64,000 bases of DNA from a virus (Duplodnaviria; Heunggongvirae; Uroviricota; Caudoviricetes), in IMG/VR virus record IMGVR_UViG_3300045996_002451, positions 19,172 to 83,171 of that record; one strand, given 5' to 3'. Below the pieces are notes generated by a model. The model did no database searches, was not told the origin of the DNA, and saw only the letters and a list, made by a program, of their open reading frames with translations. Shown piece by piece: positions 15,907 through 47,533 of the stretch. Made by a program: the position numbers and the translations under genes. Within the stretch, counting starts at the first letter, position 1. Each line of letters begins with the position of its first letter.

Positions 15907-17631
15907 CTAGATATTGCCCAGCGCAAATTGCCCCATGATGTTCGGTGTGGAGGCATCAAAACCCACACAATCGATCATTCCCCGATCTTTGGGATCGGCG
16001 ATGGTGAACCCGTTCGAGACCATACCGCACACGATCAGCTTGGCGTCGATGCCCATCTTCTCCCGGTACGCGCGCAGGGCCTGGACGGGCTGTACCGGTC
16101 CAGCGTACGTCTCGGAGTCCGTGTAGACCACGAAGACATCGAACGGGATCTTCTTTGCCAGCGCGTAACGCATCGGCAAGGAGCAGTCGGTGGAGCCGAA
16201 GGCAAGGTTGTTGACTTCGTTGCATGCATCGGTCAGCCGCTGGCGCGGACTGACTTTCAGCTCACTGATCCCATCGATCTCGTCCGCTGTTGCGCGGTTA
16301 CGCGCGTAGTAACCCCGGCTGCCTGCGGTGAAGCCCGTGATCATGTACTGGTCTTCGACGTTTGCCGTGACCAAGGCCATCGCCACGGAGCCCACGCGCG
16401 GGGAGAGCCCCTGCACGCCGCCGCACATTCCACCCGTCATCGAGCCCGAGACGTCCAGGGCCAGCATCCACCGCTTGCCGGTCGGCTCCACGTTCTTGAA
16501 CGCCAGGTAGAACGCCTTGTCCAGTCCGTCCACGATCTGACGCACAGGAGACCAGACGTTGTCCCCTTTCAGGGATCTGCCGGACTCGTACGTCTTCATC
16601 GCAGTGAGCACGGCGATCGGATGGATCCGCGAAGCCGCCAGTCCTGCCGGATCGGTCAGCTTGTTCACCACGAACTTGGTGGCGTCGGACATCGGTCCCA
16701 GGACTCCGTAGCGGGTCATGTTCGCCAGGTTGCGCAGCATCGCCGTAAGACCCATCTCCGGCAGCAAGGCCTCCCAGACAGCCGGGCTGGTCTTGTACTG
16801 CGTCGGGATGCACTCGTGCGGCAGCCGGAACTCCTTGAGGACCGTGATCACGTCCTTTTCGGTCGGTACCCGCTTGATCAGCTCGAAGCCCCGGATCATA
16901 TCCGGCAGGTGCTGCGAAAGATCTTCGTACATCACCGCACCGGTGGACAGCTCGCTGCCGCACTTGACGCCCTTCTTGCGCGAGACCGTACGCGTACCGA
17001 GATCGCCGCCCACGGACCAACGCATCGCCGCGTCCTTGCTCTTGCTCTCCGTGATCGGATGCGCGAGGCGCAAGACGTCGCGATGGCTCCAGCCGTCCCG
17101 CTGCTGATACTTGATCAACTGCAGGGCGAGGGAGTTGTCCGAGCGCTCCGTGTACCAGTTGGCCACGGCACGTCGCAGTCCTCGACCCCAGCCGCGCATG
17201 CCATCGACGTGCTCGCAGAACTGGAACAGGTGGGTGCCGATGCGACATACCTTGGGTAGTGCCGAGAGGGCAGCCGCCCGGGTCGGGTCGTCGCCATAGC
17301 TGGCCGCGATCGCCAGGACGAAGATCGCCTGGTCGTTCTTGGGTGCTCGCGCCTGATCCGAGACTTCCGTCACGATCTGTACGGTCCGGAGACCATCCGC
17401 CTTGACGCACTCCTGTGCCGCCTTCGCGTTCTCCAGGGTCAGCTTCTGCTGCGTGGCGTAGTAGGAACCGCCTTCACTTCCCAGGATGAGGAAGCGCTGG
17501 AGGCGGGTCCAGCAATCCACGCCAAAGACGACGCCTCCGGCACTGTTGGGGACCATGTCGGCTTCTCGGCCCGGGATCGCCCGCGTCTGCGGCGTCTTCT
17601 TGCTGCTCAATGTACCCTTCAGATAACTCAT
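15907..17631 (-). CDS. rsr: Ro60/TROVE RNA-binding protein (Rsr)
   Basis: NSAGG, RLQRFLILGSEGGSYY, GWGRGLRRAVANWY, KYQQRDGWSHRDVLRLAHP, vWA MIDAS LALDVSGSM, YTDSET, GFDAS. Confidence 0.96.
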   Translation of the reverse strand: MSYLKGTLSSKKTPQTRAIPGREADMVPNSAGGVVFGVDCWTRLQRFLILGSEGGSYYATQQKLTLENAKAAQECVKADGLRTVQIVTEVSDQARAPKNDQAIFVLAIAASYGDDPTRAAALSALPKVCRIGTHLFQFCEHVDGMRGWGRGLRRAVANWYTERSDNSLALQLIKYQQRDGWSHRDVLRLAHPITESKSKDAAMRWSVGGDLGTRTVSRKKGVKCGSELSTGAVMYEDLSQHLPDMIRGFELIKRVPTEKDVITVLKEFRLPHECIPTQYKTSPAVWEALLPEMGLTAMLRNLANMTRYGVLGPMSDATKFVVNKLTDPAGLAASRIHPIAVLTAMKTYESGRSLKGDNVWSPVRQIVDGLDKAFYLAFKNVEPTGKRWMLALDVSGSMTGGMCGGVQGLSPRVGSVAMALVTANVEDQYMITGFTAGSRGYYARNRATADEIDGISELKVSPRQRLTDACNEVNNLAFGSTDCSLPMRYALAKKIPFDVFVVYTDSETYAGPVQPVQALRAYREKMGIDAKLIVCGMVSNGFTIADPKDRGMIDCVGFDASTPNIMGQFALGNI

Positions 17632-17694
17632 TGCACACTCTCTTTCGGCCCGTTTACGGGCGTTACACGTGTATCACACGTCATACAACACTAC

Positions 17695-17848
17695 AGGGGA
17701 GGTAGGAGTCGAACCTACACGACACACTGCCAAGTCGTTATCTCAACAGTAGCAGACGGGAAAGCTAACGACACTCGACCGTACTGCTTATTACCGTGTC
17801 TGACCCAGGGTTGGTCCACTGGCGCTCTGACCATTAAGCTACTCCCCT
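17695..17848 (-). ncRNA. YrlA-like Y RNA (tRNA mimic)
   Basis: AGGGGAG/CTCCCCT acceptor, D arm, T arm GTAGG-TTCGACT-CCTAC; ~100-nt insert in place of the anticodon with a GGTCGAGTG stem. Confidence 0.7.
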
Positions 17849-17973
17849 AAGAAACCATGTCCGGGGTAGGACTCTCACCTATTTGATTTCAAGCAAGAAC
17901 GGGTGGCCACCCGTCTTCCTGCCCTCTCCGACTATACGGTCCCGAACTCTACCGAGCTGTTTCCAGCTCAACT

Positions 17974-18050
17974 CAACGTAGGGGGAGTTGAACACCCCGA
18001 CCTCAATCACGGTTTCCGTGACTGCGCTCTTACCCCTGAGCTATACGCCG
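17974..18050 (-). ncRNA. tRNA-like RNA without an anticodon loop
   Basis: D and T arms present; anticodon arm is the long hairpin CAGTCACG-GAAAC-CGTGATTG. Confidence 0.6.
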
Positions 18051-18087
18051 TGCTTAACTTAGTGGTCTCCACTGAGTTAAGGGGGGC

Positions 18088-18160
18088 CGATCGTGGTAGG
18101 AGTTGAACCTACGACCTCCAGGTGTACATCCTGGCGCTCTACCAACTGAGCTACACGATC
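18088..18160 (-). ncRNA. atypical tRNA or tRNA mimic (GTA in loop)
   Basis: Full cloverleaf, but the loop ATGTACA has A32/C37 and there is no long variable arm. Confidence 0.6.
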
Positions 18161-18167
18161 GACATTA

Positions 18168-18230
18168 GGACAGGCAAGTTGATTGAAGTGGGGAGTTCAT
18201 GCGAGATAACCCACCTCATTCGGCCCGTCT
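18168..18230 (-). ncRNA. minimal Y RNA-like hairpin
   Basis: 5' GACGGGCCGAATG...GGTTATC...ACTTGCCTGTC 3', a bulged Ro-binding-type stem. Confidence 0.72.
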
Positions 18231-18237
18231 TAAAAGT

Positions 18238-18615
18238 TTACTGGGTTGTGAAGCGGCAGTTGCTTTTACGCGTATGCTCCTTCAAGTTGACCTTGATCGG
18301 GCAGCGCTTGGAGTTCAAGCGTGCCAGGATGTGTCCCTCGTGCGGGTTGTAGTAGTGCAGCGGTGGATAGTCCCAGATCGCAACCTCAGTCTTGCTCCAG
18401 TCCATCACGAAGCTGCGCTCGGCAAAGCCCCAGATGACGCCATGGTTGTCCCGTTTGAGCAGCACGTAGCGGCGCCAGCGGGGGATCGGGATCTTTTCTG
18501 AAGACAGGGCACGTTGGACGCCCCGCTTATTGAACGGACTACCCCCGGTGACATCAGTGCCTGTGTTCCACATGGCGCGTTGGATGCGCGCGCGTTTGGT
18601 GGTCAGTTTAGGCAT
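18238..18615 (-). CDS. basic hypothetical protein
   Basis: 125 aa, AAGGAGG RBS, K/R-rich. Confidence 0.6.
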   Translation of the reverse strand: MPKLTTKRARIQRAMWNTGTDVTGGSPFNKRGVQRALSSEKIPIPRWRRYVLLKRDNHGVIWGFAERSFVMDWSKTEVAIWDYPPLHYYNPHEGHILARLNSKRCPIKVNLKEHTRKSNCRFTTQ

Positions 18616-18639
18616 GACAGCCTCCTTGGGGTAAATGTT

Positions 18640-18904
18640 GCGGCCTGCGGGAATCTAACCCACACTCGTTAGGTGTACTGCGCTTACTCGCTTGCTTGAA
18701 CATCCCGTCTGGAATGGCGTGAAGGAAGACGGGCCTACCAGGTCTGCACTGAAGCGCACATAGAGGCCGCTTAGTCCGCACGAATGAGTCCCCGTGCCAT
18801 ACGGCAACTCAGTCATTGTACCAAGCGGTGATCTCTAGACAGGGACCTCGGACGATTTGCAGTCGCCCTCTTAGCCTGTGCTACCAACTCTGCTCTCGGG
18901 CCGC
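18640..18904 (-). ncRNA. 265-nt RNA with a tRNA-like frame
   Basis: GCGGCC/GGCCGC terminal stem, T-arm-like GTGGG-TTAGATT-CCCGC, Cys-type hairpin GGCGA-CTGCAAA-TCGTC. Confidence 0.55.
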
Positions 18905-18922
18905 ACGAAATTGTTTGACTAC

Positions 18923-19065
18923 GCCAGGGGATGGACTCGAACCACCGACCCGTAGTGTATGGTAACCTTCAAACGCCGACCCCGACCAGGGTAGTTAGCC
19001 CTCGCTGAGATAAGTGTGTAAGAAGACATGTTGGACTGCTGCTCTACCAACTGAGCTACCCTGGC
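18923..19065 (-). ncRNA. YrlA-like Y RNA
   Basis: GCCAGGG/CCCTGGC acceptor, D and T arms; insert with a pyrimidine tract and GGGGTCGGCG...GGTTACC. Confidence 0.75.
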
Positions 19066-19072
19066 AAGGGAG

Positions 19073-19137
19073 TCCGGGCAAGTGGTTGCGGCGAGGGGTG
19101 TTACTTGAAAGGGTAACCCTCATTGCTCCGGCCCGAA
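19073..19137 (-). ncRNA. minimal Y RNA-like hairpin
   Basis: TTCGGGCCGGAG...GGTTACC...ACTTGCCCGGA. Confidence 0.7.
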
Positions 19138-19144
19138 CAAAAAC

Positions 19145-19263
19145 TTTGAAGAGGACAAGGGAGTTAACCTCGACTGAAACGGCCACCAAGGCAGCGCCCG
19201 ACTCGAACGGGCTTCGTCTTGTTTTGTAAGCAAGATAACCGAAGTCATCCGGCCCTCTTCAAA
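19145..19263 (-). ncRNA. Y RNA-like with an internal T arm
   Basis: TTTGAAGAGGGCCGGATG...GGTTATC...GCCCG-TTCGAGT-CGGGC...CTTGTCCTCTTCAAA. Confidence 0.75.
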
Positions 19264-19345
19264 TGAAGGTGGTTGCTGCGACCTGCCTAGCGGTATCCCC
19301 ACCGGTATGGAGATATGGTTCCGCGGTCTGCGCTCTCACCACCAG

Positions 19346-19444
19346 GATACACCGTGGGACTCGAACCCACCCGTATGACACTTTTCAGGTCATCGCCGTC
19401 CCTGGTTCTTCACCAGGCGCTCTGCCAACTGAGCTACGTGCATC
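19346..19444 (-). ncRNA. tRNA-like RNA with a non-canonical loop and long variable arm
   Basis: D arm, CCTGG-TGAAGAA-CCAGG, extended variable region, T arm GTGGG-TTCGAGT-CCCAC. Confidence 0.6.
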
Positions 19445-19563
19445 ACACCAACTATTTAGTTGTAAGGGAGGCAGGGAACATCAGCTAGTCGCGCTTTGCT
19501 GACTCTTCTAGGGGCTTTGTATCTGTACGTCTACTCGGGTAACCATCCCCTTACACCTGCCAA

Positions 19564-19635
19564 GCTGCAACGTGGGACTCGGACCCACACAAACCAAGCG
19601 TACTTAGTTGCTCTACCAGTTAAGCTAGTTGCAGC
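19564..19635 (-). ncRNA. tRNA-like RNA with a UACG tetraloop in place of the anticodon
   Basis: GCTGCAAC/GTTGCAGC stem, D arm, AACTAAG-TACG-CTTGGTT, T-like arm. Confidence 0.6.
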
Positions 19636-19680
19636 TCTCTGAAAACTGAAAGGACTCTCACCCACTCAGTTGCCAGAAAA

Positions 19681-19992
19681 TCAGTCGGACCAGGTAATCT
19701 GGGCGTCATCCCAGCGCACGTTGTACTCGACCGGGGAGACGGTGGGCCACTCGCCGACCCAGAGGATCTGAGTCTGCTCTTCGGAAGGCCCGTCGGAGTA
19801 AGCCGAGAACTCCTGTCCAGTCTGGGGACCCGTCAGGTTCTGCGCCGTGGTGAACCCGGTCCACGGATCGTAGGACCGCACCGCGCACGTTTCTACTGTG
19901 GTCGCAGTGGGTTCCGCGCGGCTCTGGGTGCCTGGAAAAAGAAGACTGGCTGCGAGGGCCAGGATCAGGGCGAACAGTACTGGGAACTTCAT
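19681..19992 (-). CDS. secreted hypothetical protein
   Basis: Signal peptide MKFPVLFALILALAASLLF; GGAGG RBS. Confidence 0.7.
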   Translation of the reverse strand: MKFPVLFALILALAASLLFPGTQSRAEPTATTVETCAVRSYDPWTGFTTAQNLTGPQTGQEFSAYSDGPSEEQTQILWVGEWPTVSPVEYNVRWDDAQITWSD

Positions 19993-20050
19993 GGAAACCT
20001 CCGTTCAGGTAAAAGATTACGAACTGCTCAGGTTACCCGAGCGTGGTTAG

Positions 20051-20170
20051 GTGGGGAAGCAGGAATCGAACCTGCGTCTCGATCTCCTCAAGATAAACCT
20101 TCAACACCGGCCCATTGCTGGACAAAAAAGAAGAAGGGTTTACGCGCCTTGCCACTAGGCCATTCCCCAC
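20051..20170 (-). ncRNA. YrlA-like Y RNA
   Basis: GTGGGGAA/TTCCCCAC stem, D and T arms; insert CCCTTCTTCTTTTTTGTCCA...TGGGCCGGTG...GGTTTATC. Confidence 0.78.
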
Positions 20171-20381
20171 ATGTGATCCGCTATGAAATTGAAACAGTCT
20201 GGGTAGGGACGGAGGTGCTGACGCCCCCACCCCGACTGCGCTAGGACCAACTACCTCGATTACGCCAGGCAGCCCACGAGAAGGCACTTCCGGTCTAGGG
20301 AGCACAGCGATCCCTCGCTGTTCCGGTCACCCGTTCTGGGTGGAGACAGTAACTCCCACCTGTTTACCTGCTAGTCCAATA

Positions 20382-20454
20382 GAGCGGGAGAGGGACTTGA
20401 ACCCTCAGTCTTTGGGTTATGAGCCCAACGTTTTACCAATTACACTATCCCGCA
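20382..20454 (-). tRNA. tRNA-Met(CAT), initiator-like
   Basis: TTGGG-CTCATAA-CCCAA with three G-C pairs; 1:72 mismatch. Confidence 0.88.
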
Positions 20455-20464
20455 ACAAATGAGG

Positions 20465-21070
20465 GTTAGGTAGGGGACGACCACCCGTTGTCTTGATCTG
20501 TCCCCTACCGTTCTCCAGAGTTAGACATCCCCGATTACAGCAGGCACCACACGGGAAGGCGCGTCCGGTCAGAGTGCAAAGGCATCCCTGCCCTTTCCGA
20601 CCTCTGTTCTAGAGGTTAGATACGTTAACACTCACCTGTTTGCCTTGTCTAACTCTTCCGTAGCTACTTCCTGACGGCTATCGCTTTTCGAACCTCACGG
20701 GAAGTGATCCCTTCGTCAACATTCAACCTACCCCGTATTAAACGGATCGATCTAGTTAACCACGCAGTAAACTGCGCCGGAGGAACGTGTCCGGTCTTGC
20801 GCTGGACGAACCTAGCTCAGACTACCCCACAAGGGTGGTTATCAGGTGGCCCGACTGCGTCTTGCGACGTCACCACGGTTGGGCCTTCTTCAGGTGTTAC
20901 CCCGAAGCCGTTATTTAGTTGTGATTGCGTCAACCTACACATTCAGGGACCACGGGACTAGCCCCCTGAACCCTTCCTGCGCCCCAGTTCCCGATTCCGG
21001 GCGCAGCTCTCCACGGTACCTCGCTGTTTGCACGTTCAAGAAAGTTCGTGCTCCAGCTTCCCTCGGTTGA
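20465..21070 (-). ncRNA. candidate large structured RNA(s), ~600 nt
   Basis: No credible ORF; many stems, e.g. 20469-20478/20500-20509, 20517-20527/20646-20656, 20848-20857/20876-20885. Confidence 0.5.
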
Positions 21071-21077
21071 CACAGCT

Positions 21078-21213
21078 TAGATGGACAAGGAGTTTTTGTT
21101 TGGGGGTTAGGTGGGACTCGAACCCACAACCTCCGGGCTATGCACCCGGCGCTCTACCGATTGAGCTACTCGTGCAGTGTGAGCGCGATAACCCAAACAA
21201 CACGGCCCATCTA
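21078..21213 (-). ncRNA. Y RNA-like stem enclosing tRNA D, anticodon and T arms
   Basis: TAGATGGGCCGTG...GGTTATC...D arm, CCGGG-TGCATAG-CCCGG, T arm...CTTGTCCATCTA. Confidence 0.72.
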
Positions 21214-21220
21214 GAAAATG

Positions 21221-21397
21221 AAGTCGAGCAAGTTAGCGCAGTCGGAGGTTTATGGCCGTGCGTACAGGGTCCCGAAGGCTGACCTGCCGTTTACACGAGT
21301 ACCTTCACCCAAAGGGCACCAGTACCCTCGCTGTGCCAGTTGCCTGGCCTGAGCTACCTTAGGACCATTAGATTACCGAAATGCTTCGGCTCGACTT
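21221..21397 (-). ncRNA. long Y RNA-like RNA with a non-tRNA insert
   Basis: AAGTCGAGCCGAAGC...GGTAATC...ACTTGCTCGACTT. Confidence 0.7.
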
Positions 21398-21747
21398 AAA
21401 ACTACCAGAGCGGTCCGTATACCGCTCTGGTCGCGGTAGTGCTTTAGTGCCTACCTCACTTCTCCCAGTCTCGTTGGGAGTTCCCGCCGACCTTATCTTT
21501 TAGCAGGTCAGTCGCTGCAGATTATGACGCTATCTGCGATCGTTGCGCAAGAGTCGTTATACGGCGTCTCTCCTGCCCTAAAGCTGGGCAGTTGCGCTCC
21601 AGGAAGCAACACGCTGCAACTGTTGTAACTAACGGTCTGTAAACGGTTTCGGAGTAAGCCCTTCCGCAGCCTAGGTACCCTCTGCGGTGCTTGTTTACAA
21701 ACGGTTGTCCCGTCACAGCGGACGGTGTGTCGCTTACCTGGCTTCCG

Positions 21748-22194
21748 TTAGGAAGTCGGTTCGGAAAGGTTGGTGCGCAGCAAATGAAGCATCCGCTTTG
21801 CTGGCAAGGACAAGGCGCCGAGATCGGTCAAGGCGCAGCGCAGCCGGATCTTCTGGTAGTTTTCCAGCAAGGCGCGCATGTAAGACTGACCTTCCGGGAG
21901 TTTCCCGTAGATACGCTTGATGACCAGAAACTTGTTCAAGGCCACGGCGGTACCCAGTTCGAAGTGGCAACCTCGAGAGGTCTCATCCCAGAAGACGTGC
22001 ACCACGTCCGCGTCCACCATGGCTCCCAGGTGACCGAACAGGATCTCTGCTCCTGTCGGGCAGGCTTCCATGGGAGTGTCCCAATAGGAGAAGACCGTGT
22101 GACCCTCGTCGCGAAGACCCGCTATGTGGGCCTTGATCAGCAACGTACGACCGGGTTCAGCAGCACGTACCGGACAGATCACAACGATCTTCAT
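21748..22194 (-). CDS. nucleoside 2-deoxyribosyltransferase-like protein
   Basis: VVICPV...ADVVHVFWDETSRGCHFELGTAVALNK. Confidence 0.6.
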   Translation of the reverse strand: MKIVVICPVRAAEPGRTLLIKAHIAGLRDEGHTVFSYWDTPMEACPTGAEILFGHLGAMVDADVVHVFWDETSRGCHFELGTAVALNKFLVIKRIYGKLPEGQSYMRALLENYQKIRLRCALTDLGALSLPAKRMLHLLRTNLSEPTS

Positions 22195-22331: not shown

Positions 22332-22360
22332 AGCTTAAGCTACAAACAAACGCCTGTCAA
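22332..22360 (-). promoter_or_regulatory. sigma70-type promoter heading the Y RNA/Ro60 cassette
   Basis: TTGACA-17 nt-TAAGCT on the minus strand. Confidence 0.75.
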
Positions 22361-43942: not shown

Positions 43943-46900
43943 TTAGTCCAGCGCTTTGAGCTGCGTCATCACCGCTGCGAGTCCCATTCCGATCTCTTCC
44001 AGTTCGGCAGAGACCTCGGAGAACTCACGGCTGCTGACGTCCGGCCAGATCCCTGCGAACAGGGCTGCGTGCAGCTCTACCTTGACCTGAGCGTCGACGT
44101 TGCTCGTGATCTCCACCGTCTGGCTCGGACGGTAGCACGGCATCGGAACCACCACTGCTCGTCCCAGTTCGTGGCGATCCACGTCCGGGTTGAGGCAGCG
44201 TCCGATGTTGCGCGTATCGCCCGGGGTGTAGATCCCCTCTTCGTAGAGGTTGGCCCAGGTTACGTCGCGTACGCAGTCCTGATCCAAGCCCTTGGCGACG
44301 AGCTTGGCGCGGATGTGCGTGACGTACTGTTCAGCGGTAGCCGTGGTGTCCTTGATGGACTTGATGCCCGCTTCAGCAGCCATCCCACTACCTACCGCAC
44401 CCAGGGCTTCCTTTCCAGCCTTGACCGCCGTATCCTTAGGGAACACGACGTCGACCGGTTGCTGGTTGCCCTTCTCATCCGTGTACCAGAACTGGATCGG
44501 GATGATGTTCAGCGTCCCTTTGAAGGGGCTGAGGAACTTCACCTTACCAGCGTCCAGTCGCGGCCAGGTGACCGTGACTCGGTACTTGGGCACCATCAGA
44601 CCCGGATGCTTCTCGATTGGGCGCTCTTCGATGACGAACACCCCCGGGAAGTCCACCGGTACTCCGTGGTGGATCAAGGTCTCGCGGTAGCTTTCCACAC
44701 GCTCCATCGTGGCCAGGTCCTCATGGGTTTGGATGAGGGCTAGCTTCAGCAGCGCGCTCGGGCAAGCCGCGATCGTATCCAGACACGCGCCATTGTAGAT
44801 GGTCACGTTCTCGATGTTGGCCACCATGGTGTTGACGACGGTCTCGTGGTTAGCCAGAGACTGGGCTCGACCGGCGCCAGTTACGTGGAGCGGGCTCGAG
44901 GTCGGTTCCACCAGGTGCTCTACCCACGCCACGTTCTTGCGGACGTGGAGGGGCAGTTGTGCCAGCAGAGCGGACAGGTTCTCGCGATTGATCTCGCAAT
45001 CGAGAGGTACGTTGCCCTTGACCGCACGCCAGATGCTCTCGAAGCACTTGGACAGTGTGGCCAGCTCTACTGCGTCCGAGTAGTCGTACTCTGCCCAACG
45101 CTTGGGAGAAGCAGCGTCGAGCGTGATTAACGGATGGTACTCCTTTACGTACTTGGGCTGACCGGTCGCATCCACGAAGGCGAACTGCTGACCAGGCTTG
45201 CTCTTGTTGGTGTAGCCCACACCCACACCGATGCACTCCAACTTGGAGGCCCAGCGTAGGCACTGGCTCAGGCGGCTCAGGCGCACGTCAAGCGGCACCT
45301 TACGGCCTGCGTAGTCTTCCGGGTCCACGATCACCCCACGGTTGAGGTGTACGTGGGTGTAGCCAGGGGTAGCTACCGGGAGCTTGACCAACTCCTGGAT
45401 GATCTCGTAGTTCAGCTTGTCGCTGATCTCTTGGTCCGGAGTCTGACCGTGCTGCAGGCTCTCCACAGTCGAGACCGTGGTGAGAGCGGTGCAAACGATC
45501 TCCTGGTACCATTCCTGGAAGCTCATCCAGCGAGGACCACCGGAGAAGCGTGGGTTGCTACCTTTCTTGTTGTCAGTGCACTTCGGATCCCAGACGATGC
45601 GGGGATGCCAGAAGAACTTGCGATTACCGACCGTGAGCACCACGTGACGGCGCTCCTGGTCCTGAGAGAACGGACCCACGAACTCTACCTTCGGCAGGTC
45701 CAGTCGTACTTTGCGTACCTGCGCGTAGGTGCCCCAGACCTGGTGGAGCTTGGCCGAGAAGACCACCCGGGGATCCTCTGCGGTGCCCACGTTGCTGATC
45801 GTGACCTCGGAGAAGACTGGGAACTCCTGGTACGTCCCATCTTCCATCTTCTTGGAGAAGACGATTCCGGTGTACCGACCCACGAGCATCTCAGCCTTTG
45901 CCCAGTCGTACTGTTCTCGCCAGGCTTTCGGCCCAGCGATGCGGAACGACTTCGGCAGATCACGGAAGGGCTTGAGGTCATCCTCGTACTCCTTCGGCTC
46001 TTCCTCTTCCAACTCTTCGAGCCAGAACGGTTTGATCCCGTAGCAGTCGAAGAGCAGGTCCTGGCAGAAGTTCTCAGGCTGACCACCGACCGCGGTGTAA
46101 CGATTCCAGATGGCCATAAACCGGGTAGCTTGCGCATCCGGGCTACGACCAGCGGAGATCATCATCCCAGCCAGCGTCTTCTGCATCGGCTTCAGGGAGA
46201 GCATCCCATCCTTATCCGAGCACGCCTGCATGATGGCTTCGAGCAAGCGCAACGGTTCAGGCTTCAGGAACTGGGAGAAGGTCTTGACGAACTTCCCTGC
46301 AGGCAAGCCACCTTTCAGTAGCTCACCAATAGCGCAGCTCATCGACATCAGGGCCAACAGACCGCAACCGGCCTTCTTCCCTGCATCCATCTCCTCTTCC
46401 AGAACTTCCTGGAAGCACACGCCCACCGTCTCTTGTGCAGCACGCAGGAGTCGGTAAGCCTGTGCATCGAAGTCCGGGAACGTCTCGGTTAGCTCATTCG
46501 GGAGCGGGTTGGTCATCGCAGCGTGCGCCGCAGCCGGGAGTGCAAATCCCGGGGTCACGCCACCCTGTTCCCACCACTGAATCGCGAGCATCCGAGCCAG
46601 GCAGTAGTTCAGCGAGTAGGTGCTGATCCCTACCAGGTACTTCGCCATCATCCCTTCGACACTGTTGAGGGTGTCGTCGAGCAGCTTGGTACCAGAGCGC
46701 TGAGCCGTCCACATCCCCACGAGCTTGTCGATGAAGGGTGAACCATCCAGCAGCACGGGAGCCGGGAACTTACCTGCTACTGAGACCTTGAGGATCTTCG
46801 GAGCACGGCCACCTACTGGCACGGCAAAGAAGACCACACCACCATCCCCGTCCTCATCCCCTAGGGCCTTGTCGGACAGGTCCACGTGGTTGAGGTAGAT

Positions 46901-47533
46901 TTTACCAGCCTCGCGATCATTGAGGATCACGATGGACTTGGGCAGACAACCGCCACGACCACCCACCGGGTAGCGCATGCGGTAGACTTCGACGAACGTG
47001 CCGTCTTCCAGCGTGTCGATCATCTTCGCGTACTGCTTGCGAAGGCGCTTCGGCAGCGTGAGGAAGTCCGCCTCGTTCAGACCCACCTGATGGGCCTTGA
47101 CCCGAGGATCAGTCTGGAGCTGCCCGTAGATGCCAATGACCTTGAAGCGTCGAAGCCAGGCTGCCCAGCGCTTAGCCGCGAGCTTGCACATCGCGAGAGC
47201 CACTTCCGTCAGCAGCCGCTTCTTGTTGTAGGTCTTGCGGGCTTCGGCGAACTGCAGCTTGGTGATCGCGCTCTCCAGCTCGATGACCGTGACGGGTGTT
47301 CCGTTGTACGTAGCCTGCATCGTCTTGTACATCCCAGCCGGAATGTAGAAGGTGCAGTTGTGCATCTCCTTGAAGCCACCACCAGAGACCGCCATCGCGA
47401 GGACGGACTCGGGCTCTTGCTCCAGCTTGCTCAGTAGCTCATCCTCGGTGTGCTCACCTGGGAAGACCCAAGCGTTGCCACCCAGGCAGAAGCGTGTTAA
47501 GGTTTCAGTGTTCATAGTGTAGGACCAACTCAT
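43943..47533 (-). CDS. single-chain two-barrel RNA polymerase candidate (beta'-like barrel first, beta-like barrel second)
   Basis: RMRYPV...GKIYLN...LGDEDGD at aa ~226 (46844-46858); AGKVKFLSPFKGTLNIIP...TDEKGNQQPVDVVFP at aa ~1000. Confidence 0.75.
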   Translation of the reverse strand: MSWSYTMNTETLTRFCLGGNAWVFPGEHTEDELLSKLEQEPESVLAMAVSGGGFKEMHNCTFYIPAGMYKTMQATYNGTPVTVIELESAITKLQFAEARKTYNKKRLLTEVALAMCKLAAKRWAAWLRRFKVIGIYGQLQTDPRVKAHQVGLNEADFLTLPKRLRKQYAKMIDTLEDGTFVEVYRMRYPVGGRGGCLPKSIVILNDREAGKIYLNHVDLSDKALGDEDGDGGVVFFAVPVGGRAPKILKVSVAGKFPAPVLLDGSPFIDKLVGMWTAQRSGTKLLDDTLNSVEGMMAKYLVGISTYSLNYCLARMLAIQWWEQGGVTPGFALPAAAHAAMTNPLPNELTETFPDFDAQAYRLLRAAQETVGVCFQEVLEEEMDAGKKAGCGLLALMSMSCAIGELLKGGLPAGKFVKTFSQFLKPEPLRLLEAIMQACSDKDGMLSLKPMQKTLAGMMISAGRSPDAQATRFMAIWNRYTAVGGQPENFCQDLLFDCYGIKPFWLEELEEEEPKEYEDDLKPFRDLPKSFRIAGPKAWREQYDWAKAEMLVGRYTGIVFSKKMEDGTYQEFPVFSEVTISNVGTAEDPRVVFSAKLHQVWGTYAQVRKVRLDLPKVEFVGPFSQDQERRHVVLTVGNRKFFWHPRIVWDPKCTDNKKGSNPRFSGGPRWMSFQEWYQEIVCTALTTVSTVESLQHGQTPDQEISDKLNYEIIQELVKLPVATPGYTHVHLNRGVIVDPEDYAGRKVPLDVRLSRLSQCLRWASKLECIGVGVGYTNKSKPGQQFAFVDATGQPKYVKEYHPLITLDAASPKRWAEYDYSDAVELATLSKCFESIWRAVKGNVPLDCEINRENLSALLAQLPLHVRKNVAWVEHLVEPTSSPLHVTGAGRAQSLANHETVVNTMVANIENVTIYNGACLDTIAACPSALLKLALIQTHEDLATMERVESYRETLIHHGVPVDFPGVFVIEERPIEKHPGLMVPKYRVTVTWPRLDAGKVKFLSPFKGTLNIIPIQFWYTDEKGNQQPVDVVFPKDTAVKAGKEALGAVGSGMAAEAGIKSIKDTTATAEQYVTHIRAKLVAKGLDQDCVRDVTWANLYEEGIYTPGDTRNIGRCLNPDVDRHELGRAVVVPMPCYRPSQTVEITSNVDAQVKVELHAALFAGIWPDVSSREFSEVSAELEEIGMGLAAVMTQLKALD

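What the first reader, a model, noticed from the sequence alone, without database searches (positions are those of the whole stretch)
20465..21070. ~600-nt ORF-free, highly paired interval: candidate large ornate RNA
Seen: bounded by tRNA-Met and a Y-like RNA, with many stems (GGTAGGGGAC/GTCCCCTACC, AGAGTTAGACA/TGTCTAACTCT ~130 nt apart, GGCCCGACTG/CGGTTGGGCC, TTCAGGG/CCCTGAA, CTGCGCC/GGCGCAG). Known: GOLLD and ROOL large RNAs occur next to phage tRNAs. I cannot assign a family by eye; it could be new, or two RNAs split at the boxA-like site near 20912.
Basis: partly seen in the sequence, partly recalled or inferred. Interest (0 to 1): 0.7.

Follow-up and report, generated by a model that had tools for sequence, protein, structure and literature searches.

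The report
New phage double-pseudoknot RNA family
The stretch is not one giant RNA but a row of smaller RNA genes in a phage, and one of them belongs to an uncatalogued, tightly knotted RNA family found in at least 27 other phage or phage-like sequences, many of whose members carry the loop signature that other RNAs use to grip tRNA.

Summary
The listed stems are real and the interval is non-coding, but its overall fold is only modestly better than shuffles (z about -2.3 to -2.8), and it matches no Rfam family, GOLLD and ROOL included. On the minus strand, inside a phage Ro60/Y-RNA cassette, it splits into unit A (20927-21073), unit C (20657-20911) and unit B1 plus hairpin D1 (20469-20656); B1+D1 is duplicated at 20201-20377. 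B is a new family: 27 further full-length homologues, almost all phage-borne, one in cultured Moorella phage MTATph1. Covariation supports a long closing helix, a three-way junction, a pseudoknot (4 of 6 pairs change on both sides) and a second peripheral pseudoknot. Sixteen of 29 members carry the AG..A / UG..A pair typical of tRNA-elbow-binding double T-loops; the two copies here have the other periphery type and lack it. The family is not tied to Ro60. My best guess is a free-standing RNA acting on tRNA or tRNA-like RNA (about 30%, untested). A and C have no homologues and remain unexplained. No sequence match to this scan's notes on other DNA; two notes describe possibly related phage RNAs that I could not compare.

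The parts
20517..20656 (-). Unit B1: member of the new RNA family (type-2 periphery). P1 20656-20646/20527-20517; P2 20645-20642/20560-20557; AAA 20641-20639; pseudoknot 1 20638-20633/20546-20541; P4 20633-20629/20576-20572; hairpins 20616-20600 and 20592-20581; pseudoknot 2 20600-20597/20568-20565; P3 20556-20552/20533-20529
   Evidence: coordinates; covariation; model R1 score 91 bits (it was in the training set)
20469..20509 (-). Hairpin D1, following B1; its counterpart D2 follows B2. No U tract, so not a standard intrinsic terminator; not looked for systematically in other members
   Evidence: z -4.89; aligned with D2; not called as terminator
20657..20911 (-). Unit C: about 255-nt hairpin-rich non-coding block of unknown family; contains an 11-nt stretch from 20702 identical to the start of the B-family 3' core but is not scored by the B model
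   Evidence: fold not better than shuffles; no homologue; not hit by R1
20912..20922 (-).
20927..21073 (-). Unit A: 147-nt multi-arm element closed by a 9-bp stem (21073-21065/20935-20927, one G-U); unknown family
   Evidence: z about -2; no homologue
20244..20377 (-). Unit B2: paralogue of B1, starting 4 nt after the tRNA-Met gene
   Evidence: 71% identity over 119 nt, E 7e-8
20201..20232 (-). Hairpin D2 (11 bp), counterpart of D1
20382..20454 (-). tRNA-Met(CAT) between the two B+D copies
21077..21222 (-). Y-like RNA with tRNA-like domain, the upstream neighbour
   Evidence: tRNA model hit 21109-21170; z -4.35; shares the cassette's Y-type repeat (family D3)
15907..17631 (-). Ro60/Rsr (TROVE + vWA) gene that ends the RNA cassette
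   Evidence: PF05731, PF25045
12921..14504 (-). tRNA nucleotidyltransferase (CCA-adding type) downstream of Ro60

Best explanation
The interval is part of a polycistronic RNA cassette of a 211-kb phage and holds several RNA units. SHOWN: unit B1 (with its copy B2) is a member of a phage RNA family of about 130-250 nt with a fixed architecture: a long terminal helix P1 of free sequence, a P1/P2/P3 junction, an invariant AAA, a pseudoknot between the strand after AAA and the loop on top of P3, and one of two exchangeable peripheral domains, each with a second pseudoknot. INFERRED: P1 makes it a self-contained RNA that is cut out of longer transcripts and acts in trans. The order of elements (P1, P2, AAA, pseudoknot strand, domain with T-loop signatures, P2', pseudoknot partner, P1') parallels RNase P. 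The likeliest job (about 30%) is to hold tRNA or tRNA-like RNA: the AG..A / UG..A loop pair of type-1 members would stack on the elbow and the invariant knotted core would be the effector or protein-binding end. For the two type-2 copies here this is weaker (about 20-25%), since they lack those loops; only their place beside tRNA-Met in a tRNA-mimic cassette points that way. The confidence figure is for the dissection and the family, not the function.
For: Duplication of B+D alone. 29 distinct full-length sequences, median identity of the variable part 0.49. 98.7% of cells paired, 9 of 19 pairs and 49 cells changed on both sides, 0 of 500 shuffles as high, slid controls 35-48% paired. The pseudoknot loop was left free in one scan and came back in six further versions, each matched by a changed 5' strand. 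P1 duplex -26.1 kcal/mol with own partner versus -10.5 +/- 4.0 with another member's. Type-2 P4 finds its partner 11-13 nt from the domain end in 9 of 9 members, with 6 different sequences. Second pseudoknot: type 1 own score 13.8 versus cross 9.6 +/- 2.4; type 2 in four versions. T-loop signature pair in 16 of 29; first loop 20-26 nt from the core in 11 of 16; the signature is that of PMC3664808. Neighbouring genes are phage genes with no shared family beyond 2 of 86 ORFs, and the downstream ORF has no fixed orientation (crude ORF calling). Several members sit in or next to tRNA arrays (window, L097, L166, L208; L133 and L160 within a few hundred nt).
Against: No expression or binding data. 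The window's own copies lack the T-loop pair. Three complete carrier phages have no tRNA gene, and most members are not beside one. The T-loop pattern was read off the same data, so its shuffle test (mean 0.18) overstates significance. In this family both loops cap separate hairpins, unlike RNase P or the T-box. Much of the invariance of the 3' core was imposed by my search patterns; only AAA, the G-C pair in P2, the outer P3 pairs and the strand after P3b (12 of 12 when left free) were tested free. The border between A and C is uncertain: 13.9 expected cross pairs.
Confidence: 0.8

Rival explanations
1. Units A and C are the 3' domain of a larger RNA of about 1.1 kb (21771-20651), closed by a 27-nt imperfect helix, with Y RNAs embedded in its middle, as GOLLD sometimes embeds tRNAs. 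B1 would still be separate.
For: Arms 21745-21771 and 20651-20677 are 78% complementary; about 19 pairs form between them when the whole stretch is folded; the upstream block 21404-21771 is strongly structured, z -6.2. tRNAs in the GOLLD linker: 10.1101/2024.12.08.627333.
Against: 4 of 100 shuffles reach the same score, and the blocks were chosen after seeing the match; the helix overlaps the 5' strand of B1's P1 by 6 nt; no homologues to test covariation; no Rfam match.
Confidence: 0.2
2. The B family acts in cis on the transcript that contains it, for example as a put-like antitermination element, a processing or stability element, or a self-cleaving ribozyme that separates cassette units.
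For: Many members lie within a few bases of an upstream stop codon on the same strand or between tRNAs; the compact pseudoknot with invariant junction bases suits a ribozyme; the topology resembles pistol (from memory, not tested).
Against: No Rfam ribozyme or riboswitch match for the window or 20 homologue loci; no shared neighbour gene; large conserved peripheral domains and a 10-22 bp closing helix are more than small self-cleaving ribozymes need (own knowledge).
Confidence: 0.25
3. The B family is a decoy or scaffold for a host protein or complex (for example a ribosomal L1-stalk or RNase P mimic), and the T-loop pair only stabilises the fold.
For: The periphery can be swapped, or shrunk to 48-68 nt, without loss of the core, so the T-loops are not essential to every member; the L1 stalk uses the same module (PMC3664808).
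Against: No partner gene travels with it; no direct evidence.
Confidence: 0.2
4. The whole 606 nt is one GOLLD/ROOL-like RNA.
For: Non-coding, folded somewhat better than shuffles, next to tRNA-Met as GOLLD and ROOL often lie near tRNAs.
Against: No Rfam match; B1+D1 folds alone, is duplicated alone and occurs alone elsewhere.
Confidence: 0.04

Closest known systems
[quoted passage not shown]
   Same: Terminal P1; P2 followed by an A run and a pseudoknot strand; an inserted domain with AG..A then UG..A signatures in the same order (type-1 members); pseudoknot partner between P2' and P1'; a second pseudoknot. The RNase P side of this topology comparison is from my own knowledge.
   Different: No CR-I or CR-V sequence, no bulged U, the pseudoknot sequence varies freely, its 3' strand sits in a hairpin loop on P3, the T-loop signatures cap two separate hairpins, and type-2 members (both copies here) lack them.
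GOLLD and ROOL large ornate RNAs (10.1101/2024.12.08.627333)
   Same: Phage-borne, pseudoknotted, no known protein partner, often near tRNA genes, conserved 3' core with variable remainder.
   Different: B is 130-250 nt, not 580-800+; no Rfam score; different core.
Bacterial and phage Y RNAs (YrlA/YrlB, Yrn; PMC4201824, PMC12135203)
   Same: The interval lies within 3-3.5 kb upstream of a Ro60 gene among Y-like RNAs, probably on one transcript.
   Different: No GNCGAA-type 5' strand or T arm in A, B or C; B occurs in 0 of 45 other Ro60 phage records, and Ro60 in 0 of 16 B-carrying records.

Membership tests
GOLLD / ROOL / OLE | Match to the Rfam covariance model | tested here: not met
   no hit at gathering score or up to E=10
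GOLLD / ROOL / OLE | One continuous RNA of about 580-800+ nt with a single conserved fold | tested here: not met
   B1+D1 folds, duplicates and spreads independently; a larger RNA containing A and C is not excluded
RNase P RNA | CR-I and CR-V sequences forming P4 with a bulged U | tested here: not met
   absent on both strands of the interval; 1 of 29 members within 2 substitutions for each; RF00010 0 of 16 records
RNase P RNA | Double T-loop signature AG..A then UG..A | tested here: inconclusive
   present in 16 of 29 members, absent in both window copies; the 3-D module is not testable by sequence
RNase P RNA | Cleaves pre-tRNA 5' leaders | not testable with these tools
   needs an in vitro assay
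T-box riboswitch | Antiterminator T-box sequence and position upstream of amino-acid genes | tested here: not met
   no T-box pattern; no Rfam hit; neighbours are unrelated phage genes
Y RNA (YrlA/Yrn) | GNCGAA-type Ro60 helix or tRNA-like T arm | tested here: not met
   no such pattern in the interval; no YrlA or Y_RNA hit there
Y RNA (YrlA/Yrn) | Linkage to a Ro60 gene | tested here: not met
   true only in this genome; 0 of 16 other carriers, 0 of 45 Ro60 phage records
Group I / group II intron | P7 R and S elements in order on one strand; domain V | tested here: not met
   only an isolated R-like 7-mer on the + strand, no S, no domain V; no Rfam hit
Small self-cleaving ribozymes (hammerhead, pistol, twister, hatchet, HDV/theta) | Conserved catalytic core recognised by Rfam models | tested here: not met
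   no hit in window or homologue loci; permuted forms and forms not in Rfam were not tested separately
Small self-cleaving ribozymes (hammerhead, pistol, twister, hatchet, HDV/theta) | Site-specific self-cleavage | not testable with these tools
   needs an in vitro assay

The most novel reading that the evidence does not exclude
Probability: 0.2. Interest if true: 0.9.

Novelty: new variant of a known kind. Interest (0 to 1): 0.68.

Why it matters
A small, strongly covarying, double-pseudoknot RNA with swappable peripheral domains, spread over unrelated phages and absent from Rfam, is a good candidate for a new functional RNA class. Reviews of the tRNA elbow predicted that further double-T-loop RNAs would turn up in viral transcriptomes (PMC4810234, PMC4919913); this family supplies a directly testable candidate, including one in a cultured phage with a known host, where it is currently overlapped by a 47-aa 'hypothetical protein' annotation. 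In this genome it also shows that a Ro60/Y-RNA cassette collects RNAs that are not Y RNAs.

Tried and rejected
Rfam at gathering and E-value thresholds on the window and homologue loci: nothing for A, B or C. Homologues of A or C: none in 81 phage Ro60 loci, in B-family loci, in 50 whole phage records (one 18-nt match, taken as chance) or among cultured phages. No close relative of this phage was found: best Ro60 54-55%, CCA enzyme 54% (its contig L220 ends before any cassette), RNA polymerase 32-36%, a neighbour protein has no homologue; so A and C could not be tested by covariation. A full-length pattern from the two copies found nothing; short core patterns worked. Mycobacterium phage MrMagoo, L093, L132/L185, L222 and L223 are taken as chance pattern hits. 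The kissing-loop idea of note e1-5596809 is disfavoured: the pyrimidine run is the 5' strand of P3, which covaries. A C-box/K-turn reading of the second loop is disfavoured because four members break the box but keep UG..A. Sequencing runs: no RNA holder listed; one soil DNA run covers only scattered pieces outside the interval core; no evidence either way. Literature: exact-motif search found only unrelated papers; no paper on this family found. The Minerva preprint (10.64898/2026.09.22.753630) could not be opened and the motif files of PMC10690425 are not held, so prior listing in those catalogues is not excluded.

Full report
Setting. The window lies in a 211,171-nt virus record with a tmRNA and a large tRNA array on the + strand. 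The finding sits on the minus strand in a mostly non-coding cassette of about 4 kb that ends in a Ro60 gene (15907-17631), with a tRNA nucleotidyltransferase further on. The cassette holds tRNA-Met, tRNA-Tyr, several tRNA-like frames and Y-like repeats. Y RNAs next to Ro60 in phages are known (PMC4201824; PMC12135203).

Observation. The five stems exist as written. Only ORFs of 41-85 aa overlap the interval and none matches a phage family. The whole folds somewhat better than shuffles (z -2.8 and -2.7 on 20 shuffles, -2.3 on 60). Rfam has nothing for it up to E=10.

Dissection. Read on the minus strand the interval falls into unit A (21073-20927, closed by a 9-bp stem), an 11-nt A-rich spacer that recurs at 19453-19463, unit C (20911-20657), unit B1 (20656-20517) and hairpin D1 (20509-20469). 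In the folding ensemble B1 and D1 pair almost only with themselves, while A and C share about 14 expected pairs. B1+D1 has a second copy, B2+D2, at 20377-20201 on the other side of tRNA-Met. These are the only two copies in the genome.

The B family. Short patterns from the two copies were scanned through viral contigs, metagenomes and species genomes, and one member turned up in cultured Moorella phage MTATph1. After removing chance hits there are 27 further distinct full-length members and six partial ones. Only one came from the 185,579 cellular genomes (one pattern only), and neighbouring genes are terminases, portal, endolysins, RecT, RusA and similar, with no family shared by more than 2 of 86 ORFs. 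The family is therefore phage-borne and has no fixed partner gene. It is not linked to Ro60: 0 of 16 carrier records have TROVE and 0 of 45 Ro60 phage records have the RNA.

Structure. Every member has a terminal helix P1 of free sequence (own-partner duplex -26.1 kcal/mol, cross-partner -10.5 +/- 4.0), a 4-bp P2, an invariant AAA, a 5-6 nt strand that pairs with the loop on top of P3, a variable domain of 48-160 nt, then P2', P3 with an internal loop, and P1'. On the 29-sequence alignment 98.7% of cells pair, 9 of 19 pairs change on both sides, no shuffle of 500 reaches that, and sliding the partners drops pairing to 35-48%. The pseudoknot is the best-tested element: the 5' strand was never part of a scan pattern, and when the loop was left free it returned in six further versions, each with a matching 5' strand; 4 of its 6 pairs change on both sides. 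Caveat: most of the 3' core was fixed by the patterns, so its invariance is partly built in; the strand after P3b was identical in 12 of 12 real hits when left free.

Two peripheries. Type 1 (16 of 29) has two hairpin loops with AG..A and then UG..A, the middle bases varying; the first lies 20-26 nt from the core in 11 of 16. [quoted passage not shown] Type 1 also has a second covarying long-range pairing. Type 2, which includes both window copies, has instead a P4 helix (partner found at a fixed distance in 9 of 9) crossed by a 4-bp pairing seen in four versions, and no T-loop pair. Three members have only a short periphery.

How it may work. Shown: a discrete, folded, modular RNA element. 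Inferred: P1 lets it be cut out of longer transcripts and act in trans, since neither neighbour gene nor downstream orientation is fixed. The element order parallels RNase P (own knowledge), and the T-loop pair suggests a caliper that holds tRNA by the elbow while the knotted core does something at a set distance (concept in PMC4919913). I put a tRNA-directed role at about 30% for the family and lower for the two copies here. Against it: these copies lack the loops, three complete carrier phages encode no tRNA, and nothing was measured. Cis action (antitermination, processing, self-cleavage) and a protein decoy are about as likely.

Membership. Not GOLLD, ROOL or OLE; not RNase P (no CR-I/CR-V; RF00010 0 of 16); not T-box, Y RNA, group I/II intron or a catalogued ribozyme. 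I found no paper on it, but two large catalogues could not be checked.

What stays open. Units A and C, two thirds of the interval, have no homologue, and no close relative of this phage is available. C is not significantly structured by energy alone. It contains an 11-nt match to the start of the B core but is not scored by the B model. A 27-nt imperfect complement between 21771-21745 and 20677-20651 could close a 1.1-kb RNA containing A, C and Y RNAs; it is borderline (4 of 100 shuffles, chosen after the fact).

Earlier notes. A first-stage note on the same DNA had seen the duplication (e1-5596809); I found it independently before reading it, and the homologues replace its kissing-loop idea with the P3 helix and pseudoknot. 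No note on other DNA matched B by sequence (these look-ups need near identity). Notes e1-5366586 and e1-5342656 describe other uncatalogued phage RNAs, one with a T-loop core; whether they are the same family could not be checked.

Verdict. Real non-coding RNA region, wrong unit: not one large ornate RNA, but a cassette segment containing a member of a new, well-supported phage RNA family of unknown function, plus two unexplained blocks. Interest 0.68.

Noticed in passing
window 21404-21771 (-): A 368-nt non-coding block upstream of the Y RNAs folds far better than shuffles (z -6.2): a long rod plus several hairpins, ending in a terminator-like stem. No Rfam match and no homologue in Ro60 phage loci.
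   Followed up: partly
window 21745-21771 and 20651-20677: 27-nt, 78% complementary arms 1067 nt apart; could close a large RNA around the Y RNAs, A and C; borderline against shuffles.
   Followed up: partly
L219:2367-2555 (+) = OR602862.1 131184-131372: Type-1 family member in cultured Moorella phage MTATph1, overlapped by a 47-aa hypothetical CDS (MTATph1_CDS0146) with no PHROG match.
   Followed up: yes
L208:1067-1251 (-) and L203:943-1142 (-): In L208 the RNA sits between tRNA-Met and tRNA-Asn and P1 is followed directly by CCA; in L203 by ACCA, as if read like a tRNA gene. Most members lack this.
   Followed up: partly
L166:1033-1113 (-): An 81-nt tmRNA-like stub (tRNA-like domain only, 63.7 bits) between tRNA-Leu and a family member.
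   Followed up: no
window 19453-19556 (-): A ~95-nt element closed by a terminal stem and followed by the same 11-nt spacer as unit A; fold not better than shuffles.
   Followed up: partly
window 17694-21401 (-): Several tRNA frames with long insertions at the anticodon position (17694-17848, 18922-19065, 20051-20170) and at least four Y-type repeats (18201, 19230, 21183, 21367) in one cassette.
   Followed up: no
window 22332-22360 (-): Perfect -35 hexamer, 17-nt spacer and a 3-of-6 -10 hexamer upstream of the cassette; below the threshold of the promoter scan.
   Followed up: no
window 43943-47533: The 1196-aa protein has only 24 relatives in the 50% library, best 32-36% identity; contig L220 carries 545 + 645 aa genes after a CCA enzyme and helicase, a layout like that noted near the start of this window; homology not checked.
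   Followed up: no
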